A DNA stretch of 29,301 bases, taken from the NCBI GenBank assembly GCA_035761885.1, contig DASTQG010000405.1, forward strand, positions 1 through 29,301, given 5' to 3'. The DNA comes from Steroidobacteraceae bacterium (GTDB taxonomy: Bacteria; Pseudomonadota; Gammaproteobacteria; Steroidobacterales; Steroidobacteraceae). The translations under genes were made by a program, and so were the position numbers. The notes beneath the pieces are model-generated. The model made no database searches. It worked only from the letters and a program-made list of their open reading frames with translations, and was not told the origin of the DNA. Below are positions 1,772 through 25,882 of the stretch, one piece after another (position 1 is the stretch's first letter; every line of letters starts with the position of its first letter).

Positions 1772-4083
1772 AGAAGTGGGTGATCGGGCTGGGCGTGCTG
1801 CTCGCGGCGTGTTGCGCGCTCGCCGCCGTGCGCTTCGCGCCGCGCCCGCCGCTGTCGGCGTCGATTCCTTCGTCGACGGCGGTGCTCGATGCGAACGGTC
1901 GGCTGTTGCGCCTGACCCTGGCGGCGGACCAGCAGTACCGGCTCTGGACTTCGCTCGAAGACATCTCGCCCGATCTGATCGAAGCACTGCTGCTGTACGA
2001 GGACCGTCACTTCCACCGCCACCTGGGCGTGAATCCGATCGCCGCGGTGCGCGCGGCGGCCGCGACGTTCTCGGGGGGCACGAGGCGCGGCGCCTCCACG
2101 CTCACCATGCAGCTCGCGCGCCTCAAGTACGACCTGAACACCCGCCACGTGAGCGGCAAGCTGCGCCAGATGGTTTGTGCGCTCTGGCTCGAAGCGCGCT
2201 ATTCCAAGAGCGAGCTGCTCGAGGCGCACCTGAACCTCATGCCCTACGGCGGCAACGTGCAGGGCGTCGGCGCGGCGAGCCTCATCTATTTCGGCAAGCG
2301 GCCCGGCGACCTCTCGCTGGGCGAAGCGTTGACCCTGGTCGTCATCCCGCAGTCGCCCGCGCGGCGCAATCCCGGCGCCGGCGCGGAGCCCGCGGATCTC
2401 GTGGCCGCGCGCGCGCGACTGCTCGAACAGTGGACGCGCCTGCATCCACTCGCGCGTGAACGGGCGCTGGCGTCCTTGCGCTATGCGGGTCCTCGCAACC
2501 TGCCGTTCGAGGCGCCGCACCTGGTCGATGCCATGCTCGCGCGCGAGCGCCCGGGCATCGGCGACCCGCGCCGCATCCGGACCACTCTCAACCTGACCCA
2601 GCAGCGATTGCTCGAACGCGTGCTCGGAAACTACGTGAGCGAGCGCAATCGCGTCGGTATCCGCAACGCCTCCGCGCTGCTGGTGGACCATCGCGACATG
2701 AGCGTGCGCGCCGTGGTCGGCTCGGCGCGTTTCTTCGATCCCGATATCGCCGGGCAGGTGAACGGCACCCTCGCCAGGCGCTCACCGGGATCCGCGCTCA
2801 AGCCGTTCATCTATGCGCTCGGTATCGACCAGGGCCTGATCCATCCGCTCACCGTGCTCGAGGACGCACCCACCTCGTTCGGGCCGTTCAGTCCCGAGAA
2901 CTTCGACGGCCGCTTCGTCGGTCCGGTGAGCGCCACGCAGGCGCTGGTGCGCTCGCGCAACGTGCCGGCGGTCGCGCTCTCGGCGCGGCTGCGGCAACCC
3001 TCCTTCTACCAGTTCCTGCAGTCGGCGGGCGTTGCGCGCATGCAATCCGAACGCCATTACGGTCTCGCGCTCGCGCTCGGCGGCGGCGAAGTGACGATGG
3101 AAGAAACCGCCGTGCTGTACGCGATGCTCGCGCAGCGCGGCGTCCTGCGACCCCTGCGCTACCTCGCCGCGGACCCCGAGGTCGAAGGGGCGCGGTTGCT
3201 CTCGGAAGAAGCGAGCTTCATGACGCTCGACATGCTGGAGCAGAACGCCCGCCCGCACGACACGACGGTGCGGCCGCGCGGACACCTGCCGGCGGCCTGG
3301 AAAACCGGAACGTCCTGGGGTTTTCGCGACGCCTGGGCCGCCGGGGTGTTCGGTCCCTACGTGCTGGTGGTGTGGATCGGCAACTTCGACGGCAGCGGCA
3401 ATCCGGCGTTCGTGGGCGCGGAAGCCGCGGCGCCGCTGTTCTTTCGCATCCTCGATGCGCTGCATGCCGCGGAGCCGGAGATGAGCGCGCCGGTGTTCCG
3501 CCAGCCCCCGAACCTCGCGCGCGTGGAAGTGTGCGCGGATTCCGGCGACCTGCCGAACGCCGATTGCCCGCGCACCGCAAGCACCTGGTACCTGCCCGGA
3601 CGCTCGCCGATCCGGGTGAGCACCGTGCACCGGCGCGTATGGATCGACACCCGCACGGGATTGCAGGCGTGCGAGGCGCGCGATGGCCCCCACGTGCGCT
3701 CCGAGGTGTTTGAATTCTGGCCGAGCGACCTGCTGGCTTTGTTCGAACAGGCGGGCATGCCGCGGCGCCGTCCGCCACCGCCGGGCGACTGTGGCTCGGA
3801 CGCCTTTGCCGGCAGCGCGCCCCGGATCACCTCGCCCGTCACCGCCGCGACCTACACGTTGCGCGCGGCGCGCACCGGCAGCGAAAGCGTTCCGCTGGCC
3901 GCGCGCGCGGATTCGGACGTTCGCACGCTGCACTGGTTCGTCGACGAGGCCTACGTGGGCTCGGGCGTGCCGGGCATTGCGGTGCCCTGGACGCCGCCGC
4001 GCACCGGGTCTTTCGTGGTGCGCGCGATCGACGATCGCGGCAGGGCGGACAGCCGGCCACTAAGGGTTGCGATCGTGCGGTAG
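1768..4083 (+). CDS. pbpC: Penicillin-binding protein 1C (transglycosylase/transpeptidase with C-terminal domain), 771 aa
   Basis: ATG at 1768 overlaps the A2M TGA. N-terminal TM anchor, GT51 motifs (EDRHF, GASTLTMQLAR, ELLEAHLN), transpeptidase motifs SALK, SRN and KTG. The first 334 codons of the 766..4083 ORF are a shadow frame. Confidence 0.95.
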   Translation: MKKWVIGLGVLLAACCALAAVRFAPRPPLSASIPSSTAVLDANGRLLRLTLAADQQYRLWTSLEDISPDLIEALLLYEDRHFHRHLGVNPIAAVRAAAATFSGGTRRGASTLTMQLARLKYDLNTRHVSGKLRQMVCALWLEARYSKSELLEAHLNLMPYGGNVQGVGAASLIYFGKRPGDLSLGEALTLVVIPQSPARRNPGAGAEPADLVAARARLLEQWTRLHPLARERALASLRYAGPRNLPFEAPHLVDAMLARERPGIGDPRRIRTTLNLTQQRLLERVLGNYVSERNRVGIRNASALLVDHRDMSVRAVVGSARFFDPDIAGQVNGTLARRSPGSALKPFIYALGIDQGLIHPLTVLEDAPTSFGPFSPENFDGRFVGPVSATQALVRSRNVPAVALSARLRQPSFYQFLQSAGVARMQSERHYGLALALGGGEVTMEETAVLYAMLAQRGVLRPLRYLAADPEVEGARLLSEEASFMTLDMLEQNARPHDTTVRPRGHLPAAWKTGTSWGFRDAWAAGVFGPYVLVVWIGNFDGSGNPAFVGAEAAAPLFFRILDALHAAEPEMSAPVFRQPPNLARVEVCADSGDLPNADCPRTASTWYLPGRSPIRVSTVHRRVWIDTRTGLQACEARDGPHVRSEVFEFWPSDLLALFEQAGMPRRRPPPPGDCGSDAFAGSAPRITSPVTAATYTLRAARTGSESVPLAARADSDVRTLHWFVDEAYVGSGVPGIAVPWTPPRTGSFVVRAIDDRGRADSRPLRVAIVR

Positions 4084-17198: not shown

Positions 17199-17702
17199 AT
17201 GCACATTCGCAACGCCACCCCCGCGGACGTCGACGCGCTGTCCGAGCTCGGCCGCGTCACATTCATCGAGGCTTTCGGGCATCTGTACTCGCCCGAAGAC
17301 CTGGCAGCGTTCCTGGAAGACTCGCACTCACCCGCCGCGTACCGCCGCATTCTCGAGGCGGATATCGTGCTCCTCGCCCAGGAGGGCGACGAGCTGCTCG
17401 GCTACTGCACGGGTGGCAGGTGCAAGCTGCCGGTGCAATCGCTGGAGCCCGCCGCCGGCGAGATCAAGCGCGTGTACGTGCGCGCCGCCGCGCACGGCCG
17501 CAAGGCCGGTTCACAGCTCCTGGATCGTCTGATCGCCGAGCTCGAAGCGCGCCGGCACCACCCGTTGTACGTGGGCGTGTGGTCGCAGAATCACGGTGCG
17601 CAGCGCCTGTACCTGCGCTACGGCTTCGAGAAGGTGGGCGAGTACGAGTTTCCGGTCGGCAAGCACCTCGATCGCGAGTTCATCCTGCGCCGCCCGCCGT
17701 GA
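17199..17702 (+). CDS. GNAT family N-acetyltransferase (PaiA-like), 167 aa
   Basis: TFIEAFGHLY, EIKRVYV, HGRKAGSQL and LYVGVWSQNHGAQRLYLRYGFEKVGEY. Starts immediately after the DUF3299 stop. Confidence 0.9.
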   Translation: MHIRNATPADVDALSELGRVTFIEAFGHLYSPEDLAAFLEDSHSPAAYRRILEADIVLLAQEGDELLGYCTGGRCKLPVQSLEPAAGEIKRVYVRAAAHGRKAGSQLLDRLIAELEARRHHPLYVGVWSQNHGAQRLYLRYGFEKVGEYEFPVGKHLDREFILRRPP

Positions 17703-17724
17703 AAAGGGGACTGTCCCCTTTTCA
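17700..17724. repeat. 25-bp perfect palindrome of the AAAAGGGGAC(A/T)GTCCCCTTTT family; probably also a bidirectional terminator
   Basis: TGAAAAGGGGAC-T-GTCCCCTTTTCA. Contains the GNAT stop codon and sits between convergent genes. Confidence 0.8.
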
Positions 17725-21621: not shown

Positions 21622-22447
21622 ACAGCGCCAGCAACGCCTCCAGCACCGGTCGCGTGTCGGGGCGCACGCCGCGCCAGAGGTTGAACGACTCGGCCGCCTG
21701 TTCCACCAGCATGCCCCAGCCTTTCTGCGCCATGCTCGCGCCGTTCGCCTTGGCCCAGCGCGTGAAACTCGTTTCATCCTTGCCGTACGCCATGTCGTAG
21801 CACAGCGTGTGCGGTCCGATCAGCTCGGGCGGCACCGGCGGCACTTCGCCCTTCAGGCTCGCGGAGGTCGCATTGATGAGCAGGTCCACCGGCTCGCGCG
21901 CAAGGTCTTCGAAGCCGCAACCGGTCACCTTGCCGAGCTCGGCGAATTCCGCGGCCAGCTCCACCGCGCGCTCGGGCGTGCGGTTCGCGATGACGAGCGC
22001 GGCAGTGTCCGATTGCAGGAGCGGTGCGATCACGCCGCGCGTCGCGCCGCCCGCGCCGAGGATCAGCACGCGCCGCCCACTGAGCTCGAAGCCGATGTTG
22101 GCCACGAGATCCGCGATCAGACCCGCCCCGTCGGTGTTGTCGCCCAGCAACTCGTTGTCCGAACCCATCGCGATGGCGTTCACGGCGCCCGCGCGCTCGG
22201 CGCGTCCGGTCATGCGATTGACCAGCTCGGCCGCCGCCCGCTTGTGCGGCACGGTGATGTTCAGTCCGCGGCCGCCCCCCGTGAAGAATTCCAGGGCCGC
22301 GGCGCGAAAGCGCTCGGGCGGCACGTCGAACAGCTTGTAGCTGAGCGCGATCCCGGACTGCTTGGCGAACATCCCGTGGATGAACGGCGACCAGCTGTGG
22401 CCCACGGGATGGCCCATCAGACCGTAGCGCTCGGGCTCTTTTTTCAT
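21620..22447 (-). CDS. aroE: Shikimate dehydrogenase
   Basis: GHPVGHSWSP, GLNITVPHK, GAVNAI, GDNTDGAG, ILGAGGA, INATSASL and GMLVEQAAESF. Confidence 0.97.
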   Translation of the reverse strand: MKKEPERYGLMGHPVGHSWSPFIHGMFAKQSGIALSYKLFDVPPERFRAAALEFFTGGGRGLNITVPHKRAAAELVNRMTGRAERAGAVNAIAMGSDNELLGDNTDGAGLIADLVANIGFELSGRRVLILGAGGATRGVIAPLLQSDTAALVIANRTPERAVELAAEFAELGKVTGCGFEDLAREPVDLLINATSASLKGEVPPVPPELIGPHTLCYDMAYGKDETSFTRWAKANGASMAQKGWGMLVEQAAESFNLWRGVRPDTRPVLEALLAL

Positions 22448-22479
22448 GACCCCCCGGGTTGAGGTAGATTGAGCGCCCT

Positions 22480-22505
22480 GTAATCCCCGCGCGCAATCCC
22501 CGGTC
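22480..22505 (+). promoter_or_regulatory. Possible ECF-sigma autoregulatory promoter
   Basis: GTAATC-N16-GGTC, 7 nt before the sigma ATG. It resembles the GTAAC-N16-CG(A/T) type of ECF promoter, matched by eye only. Confidence 0.3.
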
Positions 22506-22512
22506 CTTATAC

Positions 22513-23043
22513 ATGACTCGATCCCAGGACGGAACGGATCGGCAGCAGCGCTTTACGGCGCTGTGCAGCGCTCTGCGCCCGGACGTTTACCGCTTCGCGT
22601 TCTGGCTGAGTCGCGATCGCGCGGTCGCCGAGGACGTGGTGCAGGAAACGCTGCTGCGCGCCTGGCGGGCGATCGACGATCTCAAGGAGGAACGCTCGGC
22701 GCGGCACTGGCTGCTCACGATCGCCCGGCGCGAGCACGCGCGCCTGTACGAGCGCAAGCGCCTGGAACTGGTGGACGTCGATGTGCTCGTGGCGCGCGAG
22801 GAACCAGTCCTCGGGGCGACCGAGGATGGCGAGATCGAGGAGCTGAGGCGCGCGATGTTCCGGCTGGACGACGAGTACCGCGAGCCGCTGGTGTTGCAGG
22901 TGCTGCTGGGCTATTCGACGGAGGAAATCGCAACGCACATGGGGTTGAACACGGGAGCGGTGCTGACACGGTTGTTTCGTGCCCGCAACCGCCTGCGCAA
23001 GGTCCTGGCCTCGGGAGAGGCAGGCAAGACGGGTACGCGATGA
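22513..23043 (+). CDS. ECF RNA polymerase sigma-70 factor, 176 aa
   Basis: Region 2 AEDVVQETLLRAW and WLLTIARRE. Region 4 YREPLVLQVLLGYSTEEIA...AVLTRLFRAR. Confidence 0.95.
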   Translation: MTRSQDGTDRQQRFTALCSALRPDVYRFAFWLSRDRAVAEDVVQETLLRAWRAIDDLKEERSARHWLLTIARREHARLYERKRLELVDVDVLVAREEPVLGATEDGEIEELRRAMFRLDDEYREPLVLQVLLGYSTEEIATHMGLNTGAVLTRLFRARNRLRKVLASGEAGKTGTR

Positions 23044-23702
23044 ATTGTCTGGAATATCGGCGCGCCGTGGGCGCGGAGCCGCATCGTGCGGACGCTGAGC
23101 TCGACGCACATGCGCGCGGTTGCGCGGCGTGCTCCGAGTACACCGAGCAGATGCGCAGGCTCGACGCGCGCATCGAGTCTGCCCTGCGCATTCCCGTGCC
23201 GCTGTGGTCATCGGTGGAAACGGTGCGCGAGCGCTGGACGCGGGCGCCGCTGGCTCTGGCCGCCAGCCTCATGCTCGCCGTCGCCGTTGCTTCCATTCTG
23301 TGGATGCTCATGCCGCGGACCTCCATCGCCGCCGACGTCATTGCGCACATGCAACATGAGCCCGATGCAATGGCGACGACCGAACCGATTCCAGATTCCG
23401 CTGTCGCATACGTCCTCGAACGGGCCGGGCTGAAAGTGCATCTATCCCCGGGTTCCGTGACGTATGCGCAGAGTTGCCTGGTCCGGGGGCACTTCGTCCC
23501 GCATCTGGTGATGAACGAAGGCCGGGGCCCCGTGACGGTGCTGCTTTTGGCGCACGAGAAGGTGGATCGGGAGGAACATTTTTCGGAAGGCGGCTACACG
23601 GGCGTCATTTTTCCTGCCCCGCGCGGCGCGATCGCCGTGCTGACGCGGGACGAGTCGCAGGTGGAAGCCATCGCCCGGCGCCTCGCCGGTTCACTGCAGT
23701 AG
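23040..23702 (+). CDS. Putative anti-sigma factor, DUF3379-like, 220 aa
   Basis: ATGA overlap with the sigma gene. N-terminal MNCLEYRR...HARGCAAC (zf-HC2-like), one TM helix, then IAHMQHEP and CLVRGHFVPHLV. Confidence 0.8.
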   Translation: MNCLEYRRAVGAEPHRADAELDAHARGCAACSEYTEQMRRLDARIESALRIPVPLWSSVETVRERWTRAPLALAASLMLAVAVASILWMLMPRTSIAADVIAHMQHEPDAMATTEPIPDSAVAYVLERAGLKVHLSPGSVTYAQSCLVRGHFVPHLVMNEGRGPVTVLLLAHEKVDREEHFSEGGYTGVIFPAPRGAIAVLTRDESQVEAIARRLAGSLQ

Positions 23703-23749
23703 AGGGAGTCCCGCGAGGGACGTCATCAACTCATCGAGGAGAAAGAACG

Positions 23750-24112
23750 ATGTCCAAGAAAGTCCTGAAGACGCCGCTCGCGCTCGCTATCGGAGCAGCA
23801 CTCACCGCATCGCTGGTCGGAACTGCCAGCGCTGCGACCTTCGAAATGACCACGCTGTCGAGCGCCTACATGGCCGCGGGCGATCCGGCGTCGGCGGATG
23901 CGAAGGCCAAGGAAGGGGAGAAGGAAGGCGAGAAGGGCAAAGAGGGCACCTGTGGCGAGGACAAGGGCAAGGAAGGCAGCTGCGGTGCTGGCAAGGAGAA
24001 GGGCAAAGAGGGCAGCTGCGGCGCGGGCAAGGAAAAGGGCAAAGAGGGCAGCTGTGGCGCGGGCAAGGAAAAGGGCAAAGAGGGCAGCTGCGGCGCCGAA
24101 GAAAAGAAGTAG
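23750..24112 (+). CDS. HvfA/bufferin-type (MNIO-substrate) RiPP precursor with 1x EGTCG + 4x EGSCG, 120 aa
   Basis: GAGGAG RBS. Sec signal peptide, leader FEMTTLSSAYM as in HvfA-like low-complexity proteins, and a K/E/G-rich tail with five regularly spaced Cys. Confidence 0.8.
   Translation: MSKKVLKTPLALAIGAALTASLVGTASAATFEMTTLSSAYMAAGDPASADAKAKEGEKEGEKGKEGTCGEDKGKEGSCGAGKEKGKEGSCGAGKEKGKEGSCGAGKEKGKEGSCGAEEKK
23933..24097 (+). repeat. Coding tandem repeat, mostly 36-nt units (KGKEGSCGAGKE)
   Basis: Unit AAGGGCAAAGAGGGCAGCTGCGGCGCGGGCAAGGAA with synonymous variation. The first unit is 30 nt. No spacers. Confidence 0.95.
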
Positions 24113-24150
24113 TAACCTCGCGCGCCACGCGGCGCACGTGTAATGATCCG

Positions 24151-24188
24151 CGGCCCGCGAGCTCCGTGCTCGCGGGCCGTTTTGTTTT
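24151..24188 (+). terminator. Rho-independent terminator after the precursor gene
   Basis: CGGCCCGCGAGC-tccgt-GCTCGCGGGCCG, a 12-bp stem followed by TTTTGTTTT. Confidence 0.85.
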
Positions 24189-24220
24189 CGGTCTTAATCT
24201 TGTCAGCGGAGCGGCAGAGA

Positions 24221-24241
24221 AAAAGCGGACAGTCCCCTTTT
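24221..24241. repeat. Second copy of the GGGGAC(A/T)GTCCCC palindrome
   Basis: AAAAGCGGAC-A-GTCCCCTTTT pairs at 9/10; opposite orientation to 17700-17724. Confidence 0.7.
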
Positions 24242-24265
24242 CCGTCCCGCACCCGGTGAGCCCGC

Positions 24266-24937
24266 ATGAGCCGTACCAGCGCCGCCAAAGCCGCAGCCCG
24301 CCCCAGTTCCAGCGATGCGTTCGTGCCCGACGGGCGCTCGCGCTGCGGTTGGGTGCAGAAGGGCAACGCCCTGTATGTCCAGTACCACGACGAGGAGTGG
24401 GGCGTGCCGGTGCGCGCGGATCGCAAGCACTTCGAGTTCCTCATCCTCGAAGGCGCGCAGGCCGGGCTGAGCTGGTCGACCATTCTCAACAAGCGCGAAG
24501 GCTATCGGCGCGCCTTTGCCGACTTCGATCCGGGGCGTGTCGCGCGTTTCACGCCCGCGCGAATCGCGAAGATCCTGAAGGACCCCGGCATCGTTCGGAA
24601 CCGGTTGAAGGTCGAGGGCGCGGTGACGAACGCGCGCGCGTTCCTCGCCGTGCAGAAGGAGTTCGGCAGCTTCGACGCGTACGTGTGGCGCTTCGTCGGC
24701 GGCAAGCCGCTGCAGCGGCGTCGGCGCGGCATGAAGGACGTGCCGGCGACGAGCCGCGAATCCGATGCGCTGTCGGAAGACCTGCGCCGGCGCGGCTTCA
24801 AGTTCGTGGGGTCCACGGTGATCTATGCGCACATGCAGGCAGTGGGCATGGTGAACGATCACGCCATCGGCTGCTTCCGCCATGCCGAATGCGCCGCGCT
24901 CGCGAAGACGTTCGACCAGGGGACTGACCAGGACTAA
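24266..24937 (+). CDS. tag: DNA-3-methyladenine glycosylase I
   Basis: RCGW, YHDEEWG, FEFLILEGAQAGLSWSTIL, IVRNRLK, GFKFVGSTVIYAHMQAVGMVNDH and CFR. Confidence 0.96.
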   Translation: MSRTSAAKAAARPSSSDAFVPDGRSRCGWVQKGNALYVQYHDEEWGVPVRADRKHFEFLILEGAQAGLSWSTILNKREGYRRAFADFDPGRVARFTPARIAKILKDPGIVRNRLKVEGAVTNARAFLAVQKEFGSFDAYVWRFVGGKPLQRRRRGMKDVPATSRESDALSEDLRRRGFKFVGSTVIYAHMQAVGMVNDHAIGCFRHAECAALAKTFDQGTDQD

Positions 24938-25017
24938 AAGGGGACATTCACATTTTCGAGAGAGACGACGGCACGCGTGCCGCGCGCCTGCGCCGGAAAA
25001 TGTGAATGTCCCCTTTT
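24936..25017. repeat. 82-bp element with perfect 22-bp inverted arms (AAAAGGGGACATTCACATTTTC)
   Basis: Arms 24936-24957 / 24996-25017 with a 38-bp spacer. Overlaps the tag stop codon, between convergent tag and rlmJ. Confidence 0.9.
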
Positions 25018-25024
25018 TCTCTCC

Positions 25025-25882
25025 CTAGCGCTCGGGGACGAGCCATTGCACGCCGTGGCGGCCGCGCGGGTCCTGCGCGAGCAGCGCATGCAACTCCGCG
25101 ATGCCTTCGCGCAGCACTTCTTCCGAACGCCAGGGCGGATTGACGATCACCACGCCGGCGCCGTTGAGGCCGGCGCGCGAATCGTCCTGGTAGACGCACA
25201 GTTCCGCAGCCAGGGTCGAGGGCGGTTCGAGCGCGACGATCGAGCGATGCCAGCGTTCGACCTGCGCACGCAGCTTGATCGGATACCAGATGCAGTACAC
25301 GCCGGTACGCCAGCGCTGCAGCGCTTCGCCGAGCGCCTGCACGACGCGCGCGCTCTCTTCCTGCTGCGTTTCGTAGGCCGGATCGATGAGCACGAGCCCG
25401 CGGCGTTGCGTCGGCGGCAGCAGCGCGCGCAGTGCCTCGTACCCGTCCCGGTTCTCCACGCGCACGCGCACATCGCGCCCGACCGCGGCCGCGAGCGCCT
25501 CGACCTCGCGTTCCTGAATTTCACACAGCACCGCGCGATCGATACGGCGCAGAAGATGTTGCGCGATCAGCCCGGAACCGGGATAGGTGACAGGCTCGCG
25601 ACCGTTGCCGTAGCGCGGATCGAAGTGCGTGAGCACGTCGAGGTACGCGCGCACCGCGTCGCTGCGAGGGCTCGCGGCGACCAGCCGTCGCACGCCTTCC
25701 TCGGCCTCGTGGCTCGTGAGCGCCGCGGGGGAGGAAAGCGAGTAACGCCCACGTCCCGCGTGCGTGTCGATGTACATGAGCGGCTTGTCCTTGCGTGTGA
25801 GCGCCTGGAGCAGCCACACGAGCGCCGTGTGCTTGAGCACGTCGGCGAAGTTTCCCGCGTGATAGGCGTGGCGATACTTCAT
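25025..25882 (-). CDS. rlmJ: 23S rRNA (adenine2030-N6)-methyltransferase RlmJ, 285 aa
   Basis: MKYRHAYHAGNFADVLKH, YIDTHAGRG, YPGS, RRGLVLIDPAYE, CIWYPIK and VIVNPPW. Confidence 0.97.
   Translation of the reverse strand: MKYRHAYHAGNFADVLKHTALVWLLQALTRKDKPLMYIDTHAGRGRYSLSSPAALTSHEAEEGVRRLVAASPRSDAVRAYLDVLTHFDPRYGNGREPVTYPGSGLIAQHLLRRIDRAVLCEIQEREVEALAAAVGRDVRVRVENRDGYEALRALLPPTQRRGLVLIDPAYETQQEESARVVQALGEALQRWRTGVYCIWYPIKLRAQVERWHRSIVALEPPSTLAAELCVYQDDSRAGLNGAGVVIVNPPWRSEEVLREGIAELHALLAQDPRGRHGVQWLVPER

What the first reader, a model, noticed from the sequence alone, without database searches (positions are those of the whole stretch)
23750..24188. Orphan bufferin/oxazolin-type RiPP precursor with variant EGSCG cores and no adjacent MNIO enzymes
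Seen in sequence: a secreted 120-aa protein with five Cys in EG(T/S)CG motifs at 10-12 residue spacing, followed at once by a strong terminator and then tag. Established: EGKCG-repeat precursors (HvfA of Haemophilus influenzae, family-II bufferins of Caulobacter) are converted by a DUF692 multinuclear non-heme iron oxidase and a DUF2063 partner into 5-thiooxazole/oxazolone-thioamide copper-binding peptides, and those enzyme genes normally follow the precursor directly. Here no core has the canonical Lys, the cores are single rather than paired, and no DUF692, DUF2063 or DoxX gene is in the window. Inference: either a split RiPP pathway with enzymes in trans under the same ECF sigma, or an unmodified metallothionein-like periplasmic metal buffer. 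A repeat at 24221-24241 could mark a rearrangement point.
Basis: partly seen in the sequence, partly recalled or inferred. Interest (0 to 1): 0.8.

Follow-up and report, generated by a model that had tools for sequence, protein, structure and literature searches.

The report
Copper-peptide precursor split from its enzymes
This small secreted cysteine-repeat protein is a diverged member of the known HvfA/oxazolin family of copper-binding peptide precursors; its modifying enzymes are not missing but sit on another contig, a split layout that is normal for its whole bacterial order.

Summary
ORF 23750-24112 encodes a 120-aa Sec-signal protein with five EG(S/T)CG cores, followed by a strong terminator and then tag. 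It is the third gene of an ECF sigma / DUF3379 anti-sigma operon.

It is not a true orphan. The genome, a soil Xanthomonadales/Lysobacterales MAG about 68% complete, has two MNIO+DUF2063 pairs. One of them, on contig C268, has no precursor beside it.

Orthologues of the precursor occupy the same aroE-sigma-DUF3379-X-tag slot across the order. They grade from canonical EGKCGEGKCGG doublets to Lys-free EGSCG cores, and they pass NCBI's HvfA models. The window's copy does not pass.

- In 151 genomes of the order, the precursor and the C268-type MNIO co-occur: 81 have both, 12 the enzyme only, 1 the precursor only, 57 neither.
- In three genomes of one genus the two are adjacent.
- In most relatives examined, the sigma gene's own promoter motif recurs just upstream of the enzyme gene.
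- A same-genus genome has lost both.
- The enzyme pair is under purifying selection.

Best reading: a RiPP metallophore matured in trans. The layout is not in the papers I searched. This scan has noted the same layout before in other genomes.

The parts
22478..22508 (+). ECF-type promoter of the operon: GTAATCCCC, spacer, GGTCC, ending 7 nt before the sigma ATG
   Evidence: The motif G(T/C)AAT(A/N)A, about 17 nt, GGTC(T) is conserved at the same place upstream of the sigma gene in most of 28 related loci. In the window it scores 14.0 bits on a matrix built from the relatives only.
22513..23043 (+). ECF sigma factor, 176 aa
   Evidence: Sigma70_r2 2.4e-14 and Sigma70_r4_2 3e-12. NCBIfam NF009170 scores 204.6 bits against a cut-off of 197.
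23040..23702 (+). DUF3379 anti-sigma factor, 220 aa. It overlaps the sigma stop by 4 nt. It has an N-terminal H-x3-C-x2-C motif, one membrane helix and a periplasmic domain.
   Evidence: PF11859 6e-35, 121 bits against a cut-off of 33.2. The motif and the helix were read from the translation.
23750..24112 (+). HvfA-family precursor P0001, 120 aa plus stop, 47 nt after the anti-sigma stop
   Evidence: Orthologues lie in the same slot in many families of the order.
23750..23833 (+). Sec signal peptide, residues 1-28, with predicted cleavage ASA|A
   Evidence: Read from the sequence. It aligns with the signal peptides of the orthologues.
23834..23881 (+). Conserved leader motif, residues 29-44 (ATFEMTTLSSAYMAAG). 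Relatives have (S/N)PF.MT.LSSGYM.
   Evidence: Alignment A1: F31 and Y40 are invariant and L36 nearly so.
23942..24094 (+). Core array: EGTCG once and EGSCG four times. The last four cores lie in a 36-nt tandem repeat.
24150..24190 (+). Intrinsic terminator closing the sigma / anti-sigma / precursor operon
   Evidence: 13-pair stem with 11 G-C pairs, followed by TTTTGTTTT.

Best explanation
P0001 is a diverged HvfA-family (oxazolin / 'Lys-Cys' captophorin) RiPP precursor.

Proposed mechanism:
1. It is transcribed as the last gene of a self-regulated ECF sigma / DUF3379 anti-sigma operon. Which envelope or metal signal releases the sigma is inferred, not shown.
2. In the cytoplasm its five EG(S/T)CG cysteines are converted to 5-thiooxazoles. 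The enzymes are an unlinked HvfB-type MNIO and its HvfC (DUF2063/RRE) partner, encoded on contig C268 between DUF1841 and lexA. This step is inferred.
3. The modified peptide leaves through Sec, loses its signal peptide, and buffers Cu(I) or another soft metal in the periplasm. This is inferred from the family.

Shown here: the gene and operon anatomy, descent from HvfA-family genes, the precursor-less enzyme pair elsewhere in the genome, the order-wide split layout, and purifying selection on the enzymes.
For: 1. Descent.
- Genes in the same aroE-sigma-DUF3379-X-tag slot in other families of the order share the signal peptide and leader motif.
- They run from EGKCGEGKCGG doublets to EGSCGGDK singles.
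- All 13 members of alignment A1 (P0001 itself only at E 0.75) match NCBIfam NF050137 at E<=1, best 2.4e-41; 12 of the 13 match the HvfA equivalog NF050188, best 8.6e-23.

2. Enzymes exist.
- There are two MNIO+DUF2063 pairs.
- The C355 pair is Buf1-type: DoxX follows it, and relatives have DUF2282 precursors upstream.
- The C268 pair has no precursor on either side.

3. The C268 clade is the HvfB clade.
- In G056 and G156, MNIOs 58-60% identical to it lie directly after an HvfA-type precursor, with HvfC next.
- In G142, a third genome of that genus, the precursor match lies about 60 nt upstream of a 57%-identical MNIO, but it carries an in-frame stop.

4. Co-occurrence in 151 genomes of the order: both 81, MNIO only 12, precursor only 1, neither 57. 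The two genes are often more than 1 Mb apart on one contig.

5. Co-loss.
- The same-genus genome G001 has aroE-sigma-DUF3379-tag with only 76 nt where the precursor would be.
- It also has nth-DUF1841-lexA with a 28-residue relic of HvfC.

6. Shared promoter.
- The sigma gene's motif recurs on the right strand upstream of the C268-type MNIO in 8 of 12 relatives, beginning about 60-145 nt before the conserved GAG(L/I)GLRR start of the enzyme.
- These are 8 of the 9 strict hits in those loci. Three or four further loci have near-matches.

7. Chemistry.
- FonBC tolerates Ala, Arg or Thr at core position 3 and needs Cys at position 4 and a small residue at position 5 (PMC13097082). P0001 keeps Glu1, Gly2, Cys4 and Gly5.
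- Two whole genera have only EGSCG cores yet keep the enzyme.

8. Selection.
- dN/dS against a 91%-identical relative is 0.078 for the MNIO and 0.19 for HvfC. The neighbours nth and lexA give 0.14 and 0.07.
- Five of six natural variants in the precursor are synonymous.

9. Soil metatranscriptome contigs cover sigma and bridge the end of DUF3379 into the precursor. This is a weak hint of expression and co-transcription.
Against: - P0001 fails both curated HvfA models: 9.5-11.2 bits against 19.5, and 11.5 against 95.
- It has no Lys-Cys and no paired cores.
- In vitro, a one-repeat FonA peptide was not modified while a two-repeat one was.
- Where relatives have their first two cores, P0001 has Cys-free EGEKEGEKGK.
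- A close homologue, P0002, has a single core.
- This genome's MNIO lacks the ECF promoter seen in relatives.
- The MNIO carries Ser at the otherwise near-invariant selectivity Phe.
- The MAG is about 68% complete, so another, canonical precursor could exist.
- No modification or metal binding was measured.
Confidence: 0.65

Rival explanations
1. P0001 is exported unmodified. It acts as a Cys/Glu/Lys-rich periplasmic metal-binding or redox-buffering peptide, and the C268 enzyme pair serves another substrate.
For: It fails the HvfA models, and it has no Lys-Cys and no doublets. No ECF promoter was found upstream of this genome's MNIO, so co-regulation is not evident. The genome is incomplete. 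It also holds a stand-alone DUF2282 precursor on C240.
Against: The HvfB-type MNIO and HvfA-type precursor co-occur 81:12:1:57 and are lost together in the same-genus genome. Genera whose precursors are entirely EGSCG keep the enzyme. No other HvfA-type gene was found in the assembled genome. The DUF2282 precursor matches the other, Buf1-type pair.
Confidence: 0.2
2. The precursor is a decaying remnant on its way to loss in this lineage, still an open frame but no longer useful.
For: The first two core positions have lost their Cys, and the terminal doublet is gone. A close relative has one core. The same-genus genome has lost the precursor and the enzyme pair. The enzyme differs at 6 of the 82 positions that are invariant in 19 relatives, the most in the set.
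Against: The frame is intact. The repeat units are homogenised. The locus is held nearly unchanged in soil metagenomes of at least 9 studies and appears in RNA libraries. Five of six variants are synonymous. The enzyme genes are under strong purifying selection.
Confidence: 0.1
3. P0001 is modified, but by the Buf1-type MNIO pair on contig C355 rather than by the C268 pair.
For: That pair is also present, and its upstream precursor is cut off by the contig end. Bufferin MNIOs are close relatives of HvfB (PMC12452194).
Against: Relatives of the C355 enzyme at 59-66% identity all have a DUF2282 precursor directly upstream. Family members that have only this type of MNIO have no HvfA-type precursor.
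Confidence: 0.05

Closest known systems
Fontiphorin system FonA/FonB/FonC of Fontimonas thermophila ('Lys-Cys' captophorins; PMC13097082)
   Same: A Sec-signal precursor with repeated E-G-x-C-G cores, an MNIO plus a DUF2063/RRE partner, and no DoxX in the minimal cluster. The MNIO keeps the Arg-Arg pair and the catalytic Asp (ERD).
   Different: FonA is encoded next to FonBC, and its cores are EGKCG, mostly paired. Here the precursor is unlinked, Lys-free and single-cored. The enzyme has Ser at the position of FonB-Phe250.
HvfA/oxazolin with HvfB/HvfC (and DoxX HvfX) of nontypeable Haemophilus influenzae (PMC11252979); NCBIfam NF050188 and NF050137
   Same: The same precursor family by descent: orthologues in the same slot pass these models. 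The H. somni MNIO 3BWW matches the C268 enzyme at 1.3e-70 and has ERDFNFPP at the same site.
   Different: The hvf genes form one operon. P0001 scores below both cut-offs. No DoxX accompanies the C268 pair.
Bufferins Buf1/Buf2 of Caulobacter vibrioides and the 'stand-alone precursor' category of the MNIO landscape paper (PMC12452194)
   Same: Signal-peptide RiPP metallophores made by MNIO plus DUF2063. That paper reports sizeable proportions of precursor genes not linked to MNIO genes, and sigma/anti-sigma genes in Buf1 clusters. This genome also has a Buf1-type pair.
   Different: The anti-sigma named there is NrsF, not DUF3379. In the library searched, DUF3379 appears in only one, unrelated paper. 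No DUF2282 or Buf2 signature is present in P0001.
ECF sigma-E operon of Neisseria with an EGKCG precursor, MNIO and DUF2063 (gonophorin, PMC13097082; operon details from my own memory and an earlier scan note, not checked here)
   Same: An ECF sigma with a zinc-type anti-sigma controls an HvfA-type peptide system.
   Different: There the regulators, precursor and enzymes lie in one locus. Here the precursor stays with the regulators and the enzymes are elsewhere.

Membership tests
HvfA family precursors (NCBIfam NF050137 / NF050188; Buf_EGKCG/oxazolin; Lys-Cys captophorins) | Score above the curated cut-off of the family models | tested here: not met
   NF050137 scores 9.5-11.2 bits against 19.5; NF050188 scores 11.5 bits against 95.
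HvfA family precursors (NCBIfam NF050137 / NF050188; Buf_EGKCG/oxazolin; Lys-Cys captophorins) | Repeated E-G-K-C-G cores with Lys before Cys, typically in pairs (KCGExKCG) | tested here: not met
   There are five cores, EGTCG once and EGSCG four times, none with Lys and none paired. Lys-free orthologues are common in the order.
HvfA family precursors (NCBIfam NF050137 / NF050188; Buf_EGKCG/oxazolin; Lys-Cys captophorins) | N-terminal Sec signal peptide in place of a classical RiPP leader | tested here: met
   Residues 1-28 show a basic, a hydrophobic and an ASA|A region. This was read from the sequence and the alignment with orthologues; no signal-peptide predictor was available.
HvfA family precursors (NCBIfam NF050137 / NF050188; Buf_EGKCG/oxazolin; Lys-Cys captophorins) | Common descent with accepted members (leader homology and conserved gene position) | tested here: met
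   The gene occupies the same aroE-sigma-DUF3379-X-tag slot and shares the leader motif. Orthologues match the HvfA models with E-values down to 2.4e-41.
HvfA family precursors (NCBIfam NF050137 / NF050188; Buf_EGKCG/oxazolin; Lys-Cys captophorins) | Cognate MNIO (HvfB) and DUF2063/RRE partner (HvfC) encoded in the genome | tested here: met
   The C268 pair is present, though not adjacent: PF05114 2.5e-98 and PF09836 2.1e-27. The clade is adjacent to HvfA-type genes in G056, G156 and G142.
HvfA family precursors (NCBIfam NF050137 / NF050188; Buf_EGKCG/oxazolin; Lys-Cys captophorins) | Cys converted to 5-thiooxazole, and Cu(I) binding | not testable with these tools
   This needs mass spectrometry, UV spectra and metal titration.
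ECF sigma / anti-sigma module (DUF3379 type) | Sigma-70 regions 2 and 4, followed by a co-transcribed membrane anti-sigma with a zinc-binding-type N-terminal motif | tested here: met
   Pfam hits; the genes overlap by 4 nt; H-x3-C-x2-C motif and one hydrophobic helix read from the translation.
ECF sigma / anti-sigma module (DUF3379 type) | Conserved ECF-type promoter upstream of the sigma gene and of its target genes | tested here: inconclusive
   The motif is present upstream of sigma here and in relatives, and upstream of the HvfB-type MNIO in 8 of 12 relatives. It was not found upstream of this genome's MNIO. A genome-wide matrix scan was not specific.
Bufferin 1 / bufferin 2 precursors (DUF2282; Buf_6/12Cys) | DUF2282 domain, or CK-type 6/12-Cys pattern | tested here: not met
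   P0001 has no Pfam hit. The genome's DUF2282 gene is a different protein on C240.

The most novel reading that the evidence does not exclude
The sigma / DUF3379 / precursor operon may be a closed sensor-effector loop. In this reading the exported thiooxazole peptide is both the product of the regulon and the ligand, metal-loaded or free, that the periplasmic domain of DUF3379 reads to set sigma activity. That would explain why the precursor, and not the enzymes, stays welded to the regulators across a whole order. Nothing here tests it. It is only not excluded.
Probability: 0.1. Interest if true: 0.75.

Novelty: new variant of a known kind. Interest (0 to 1): 0.42.

Why it matters
Genome mining for MNIO RiPPs starts from the enzyme and looks a few genes either side. 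In this order that approach finds an enzyme pair with no substrate, and separately a low-complexity 'hypothetical protein'.

The comparative evidence pairs the two across the chromosome:
- they co-occur;
- they are lost together in one same-genus genome;
- they share a promoter motif;
- they are adjacent in a few lineages.

The same evidence ties the unstudied DUF3379 anti-sigma family to thiooxazole metallophore systems of several types (HvfA, Buf2). It gives a testable regulon motif: GTAATAA, 17 nt, GGTCT.

It also shows that Lys-free EGSCG cores are widespread natural substrates. That widens the accepted core motif of the family.

For this particular gene the result is mostly reassuring. 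It is a diverged member of a known system, not a new kind of molecule.

Tried and rejected
1. Enzyme-substrate covariation. The C268 MNIO has Ser at the position equivalent to FonB-Phe250, the residue said to contact core Lys3. Only it and two relatives at 91-92% identity do so among its 120 closest database homologues (itself included) and 19 enzymes of the order. I suspected co-adaptation to the Lys-free cores. Rejected as a general rule: 14 genomes whose precursors are entirely Lys-free keep Phe. The substitution stays unexplained.

2. Complex prediction of MNIO + HvfC + P0001 returned 'no answer'. The score was not specific once the MNIO was swapped. It is not used as evidence either way.

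3. A position-weight-matrix scan of the whole genome for the ECF promoter gave 68 hits above threshold, none near C268 or C355 and no clear regulon. In this 67% G+C genome the matrix mostly rewards A+T-rich sites.

4. The search for related loci with the alignment failed because no conserved stretch was found. With the single protein it gave 11 loci, used only to name the taxon.

5. RNA contigs do not cover 24075-24287, downstream of the terminator. Contigs cannot show absence, so this is not used.

6. Linking P0002 to the Ser-type MNIO through a shared sample failed. The sample accessions are close in number but different.

7. The 'rearrangement point' reading of the repeat at 24221 is rejected. 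The gene order is conserved.

Full report
**The object.** ORF 23750-24112 (+) gives a 120-aa protein, P0001. Residues 1-28 look like a Sec signal peptide with an ASA|A cleavage site. Residues 29-44 are a short conserved leader. The rest is Gly/Glu/Lys-rich, with Cys at 68, 78, 90, 102 and 114 in EGTCG (once) and EGSCG (four times). The last four cores lie in a 36-nt tandem repeat, 4 copies at 91% match. A 13-bp G+C-rich hairpin with a T-run follows at 24150-24190, then tag at 24266-24937.

**Surroundings.**
- Directly upstream lie an ECF sigma gene (22513-23043) and a DUF3379 protein (23040-23702; PF11859 6e-35).
- The DUF3379 protein has an H-x3-C-x2-C motif and one membrane helix. It overlaps the sigma stop and ends 47 nt before P0001.
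- aroE lies divergently upstream.
- No sigma-70-type promoter was found in 22300-24400.
- So P0001 reads as the third gene of a sigma / anti-sigma operon.
- Contigs from two soil metatranscriptome runs of one study cover the sigma gene and bridge the DUF3379 end into the precursor. This is a weak hint of expression and co-transcription only.

**Family.**
- P0001 itself misses NCBI's HvfA models: NF050137 9.5-11.2 bits against 19.5, NF050188 11.5 against 95. It has no Pfam hit.
- A gene occupies the same aroE-sigma-DUF3379-X-tag slot in many families of the order.
- Named relatives are Wenzhouxiangellaceae, Rhodanobacteraceae, Lysobacteraceae and Lysobacterales.
- These proteins share the signal peptide and the leader motif (S/N)PF.MT.LSSGYM. 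Their cores run from pure EGKCGEGKCGG doublets to strings of EGSCGGDK singles ending in one doublet.
- Scanned one by one, all 13 members of that alignment (P0001 itself only at E 0.75) match NF050137 at E<=1 (best 2.4e-41) and 12 match the HvfA equivalog (best 8.6e-23).
- So P0001 is an HvfA-family gene by descent and the most eroded member seen. Where relatives have their first two cores it has Cys-free EGEKEGEKGK, and it lacks the terminal doublet.
- Lys-free cores are not peculiar to it. In 60 further precursors from the order, two genera have only EGSCG cores. Lys-free proteins also occur in metagenomes: P0003 and P0006.

**Enzymes.** The genome is a MAG of 481 contigs, about 68% complete. 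It has two MNIO+DUF2063 pairs.
- C355 starts with the MNIO at the contig edge and continues with DUF2063 and DoxX. Its relatives at 59-66% identity all have a DUF2282 (Buf1) precursor directly upstream.
- C268 reads rnfB-like, nth, DUF1841, MNIO, HvfC, then lexA on the other strand. There is no room for a precursor on either side.
- MNIOs of the order fall cleanly into a C268-type group (56-69% identity) and others (43% or less).
- In G056 and G156, C268-type MNIOs lie directly after an HvfA-type precursor, with HvfC next. In G142, of the same genus, the precursor match lies about 60 nt upstream of the MNIO but carries an in-frame stop.
- In G117, G095, G081, G164 and G149 they lie 1-3 kb from one.
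- The C268 clade is therefore the HvfB/HvfC clade.

**Linkage of the two unlinked loci.**

1. Co-occurrence.
   - In an even sample of 151 genomes of the order, 81 have both a C268-type MNIO and an HvfA-type precursor. Twelve have only the MNIO, 1 only the precursor, 57 neither.
   - Seven of the twelve belong to one genus whose other members have very diverged poly-Asp EGSCG precursors that the profile barely detects. The other five are MAGs 82-87% complete.
   - Kin are not independent, so the Fisher value means little. Within the window's own family the pattern still repeats: only the members with the C268-type enzyme (G000, G015, G022, G157) have the precursor.

2. Co-loss. The same-genus genome G001 keeps aroE-sigma-DUF3379-tag, with 76 nt where the precursor would be. 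It keeps nth-DUF1841-lexA with a 28-residue relic of HvfC (residues 206-232) in between. G007 lacks both, and G009 lacks the precursor.

3. Shared promoter.
   - Upstream of the sigma genes lies a conserved ECF-type motif: G(T/C)AATAA, about 17 nt, GGTC(T), ending 6-8 nt before the start codon.
   - The strict pattern occurs 9 times in the 12 relatives' C268-type loci. Eight of these lie on the coding strand, beginning about 60-145 nt before the conserved GAG(L/I)GLRR start of the enzyme. Three or four more loci have near-matches.
   - The motif also precedes Buf2-type clusters that lie beside sigma-DUF3379 in G011, G020 and G021.
   - This explains why genomes that lost the HvfA system keep the regulators.

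4. Distances, where both genes lie on one contig, exceed 1 Mb (for example G091, G070, G120, G155).

The split is ancestral and stable, not a local rearrangement.

**What differs in this genome.**
- The sigma promoter is present at 22478-22508. No such motif precedes the C268 MNIO, which begins 2 nt after the DUF1841 stop. The same tight junction is seen in a 91%-identical relative.
- Co-regulation by the sigma is therefore inferred for the order and not shown here. The enzyme may be read through from nth-DUF1841.
- The enzyme has ERDSNFPP where 19 enzymes of the order, 3BWW, and 117 of its 120 closest database homologues (the list includes itself) have ERDF.
- That Phe corresponds to FonB-Phe250, next to the catalytic Asp249. 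Gadgil et al. describe it as a selectivity determinant for core position 3. F250A and F250D remain active (PMC13097082).
- I tested whether Ser tracks the loss of Lys. It does not: 14 genomes with fully Lys-free precursors keep Phe. The substitution is lineage-specific and unexplained.
- It does not signal decay. Against the 91%-identical relative, dN/dS is 0.078 for the MNIO and 0.19 for HvfC, like the neighbours nth (0.14) and lexA (0.07).

**Is P0001 a plausible substrate?**
- It keeps Glu1, Gly2, Cys4 and Gly5 of every core. In vitro, FonBC requires Cys4 and a small residue at position 5, rejects Arg at position 1, and tolerates Ala, Arg or Thr at position 3.
- Against it: a single-repeat peptide was not modified in that study, and P0001 has only single cores 10-12 residues apart. 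Natural precursors made almost wholly of single cores are common, though.
- The locus is held nearly unchanged in soil metagenomes of at least 9 studies. Five of the six variants seen in the gene are synonymous.

**Verdict.** The gene is real. It is a diverged HvfA-family precursor and most likely (about 0.65) still a substrate of the unlinked HvfB/HvfC pair. The unmodified-peptide reading (about 0.2) and the decay reading (about 0.1) remain open and need mass spectrometry.

**Comparison with the literature.**
- The literature already records stand-alone bufferin/oxazolin precursor genes (PMC12452194).
- In the library searched, no MNIO paper mentions DUF3379, the order-wide precursor-with-regulators layout, or the shared promoter.
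- Earlier notes of this scan describe the same sigma / DUF3379 / HvfA-like layout in other genomes. It is a recurring pattern, not a one-off.

Noticed in passing
window 22478-22515, and L066, L068, L072, L078, L082 upstream of sigma: The -10 element (GGTCT) of the sigma promoter ends only 6-8 nt before the ATG, often as GGTCTTTATACATG. The sigma mRNA may therefore be leaderless or nearly so.
   Followed up: no
window 24221-24242, 17701-17723, about 24936-24960 and 25011-25036; at least 109 copies in G000: A dispersed palindromic element, AAAAGGGGAC(A/T)GTCCCCTTTT, with a variant AAAAGGGGACATTCACATTTT. It often occurs in pairs in intergenic DNA and looks like a REP-like family of this genome.
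   Followed up: partly
G000 contig C240:6808-7086: A stand-alone DUF2282 (Buf1-type) precursor gene with no MNIO in the 390 nt that follow it. The Buf1-type MNIO-DUF2063-DoxX genes begin at the edge of another contig (C355).
   Followed up: partly
G000 contig C268:3449-4276 (L002:1477-2301), residue 251: The MNIO has Ser where nearly all HvfB-type enzymes have the selectivity Phe next to the catalytic Asp. The change is shared by two metagenomic relatives at 91-92% identity, the gene is under purifying selection, and the change does not correlate with Lys-free substrates.
   Followed up: yes
L069 (G040:C169), ORF about 2754-3434, just downstream of the HvfA-type gene: A second gene with the same leader motif, a few EG(N/S)CG cores and EF-hand-like Asp-rich loops. 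[quoted passage not shown]
   Followed up: no
genus g47 of the order (e.g. L169-L174: G159, G104, G092, G165, G061, G044): Very diverged HvfA-type precursors with EGSCGEGSCG cores embedded in long poly-Asp/Glu runs. Several profile matches in this genus carried in-frame stops, while the MNIO is retained in all 13 genomes sampled.
   Followed up: no
L101 (G001:C10), 1936-2019: A 28-residue relic of HvfC lies between DUF1841 and lexA in the same-genus genome. It marks a deletion of the MNIO-HvfC pair.
   Followed up: yes
protein P0002 (ENA sample ERZ27256741, 794-bp contig): A complete 78-aa close homologue of P0001 with an almost identical signal peptide and leader but only one EGSCG core. Core number varies from 1 to 5 within this lineage.
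   Followed up: partly
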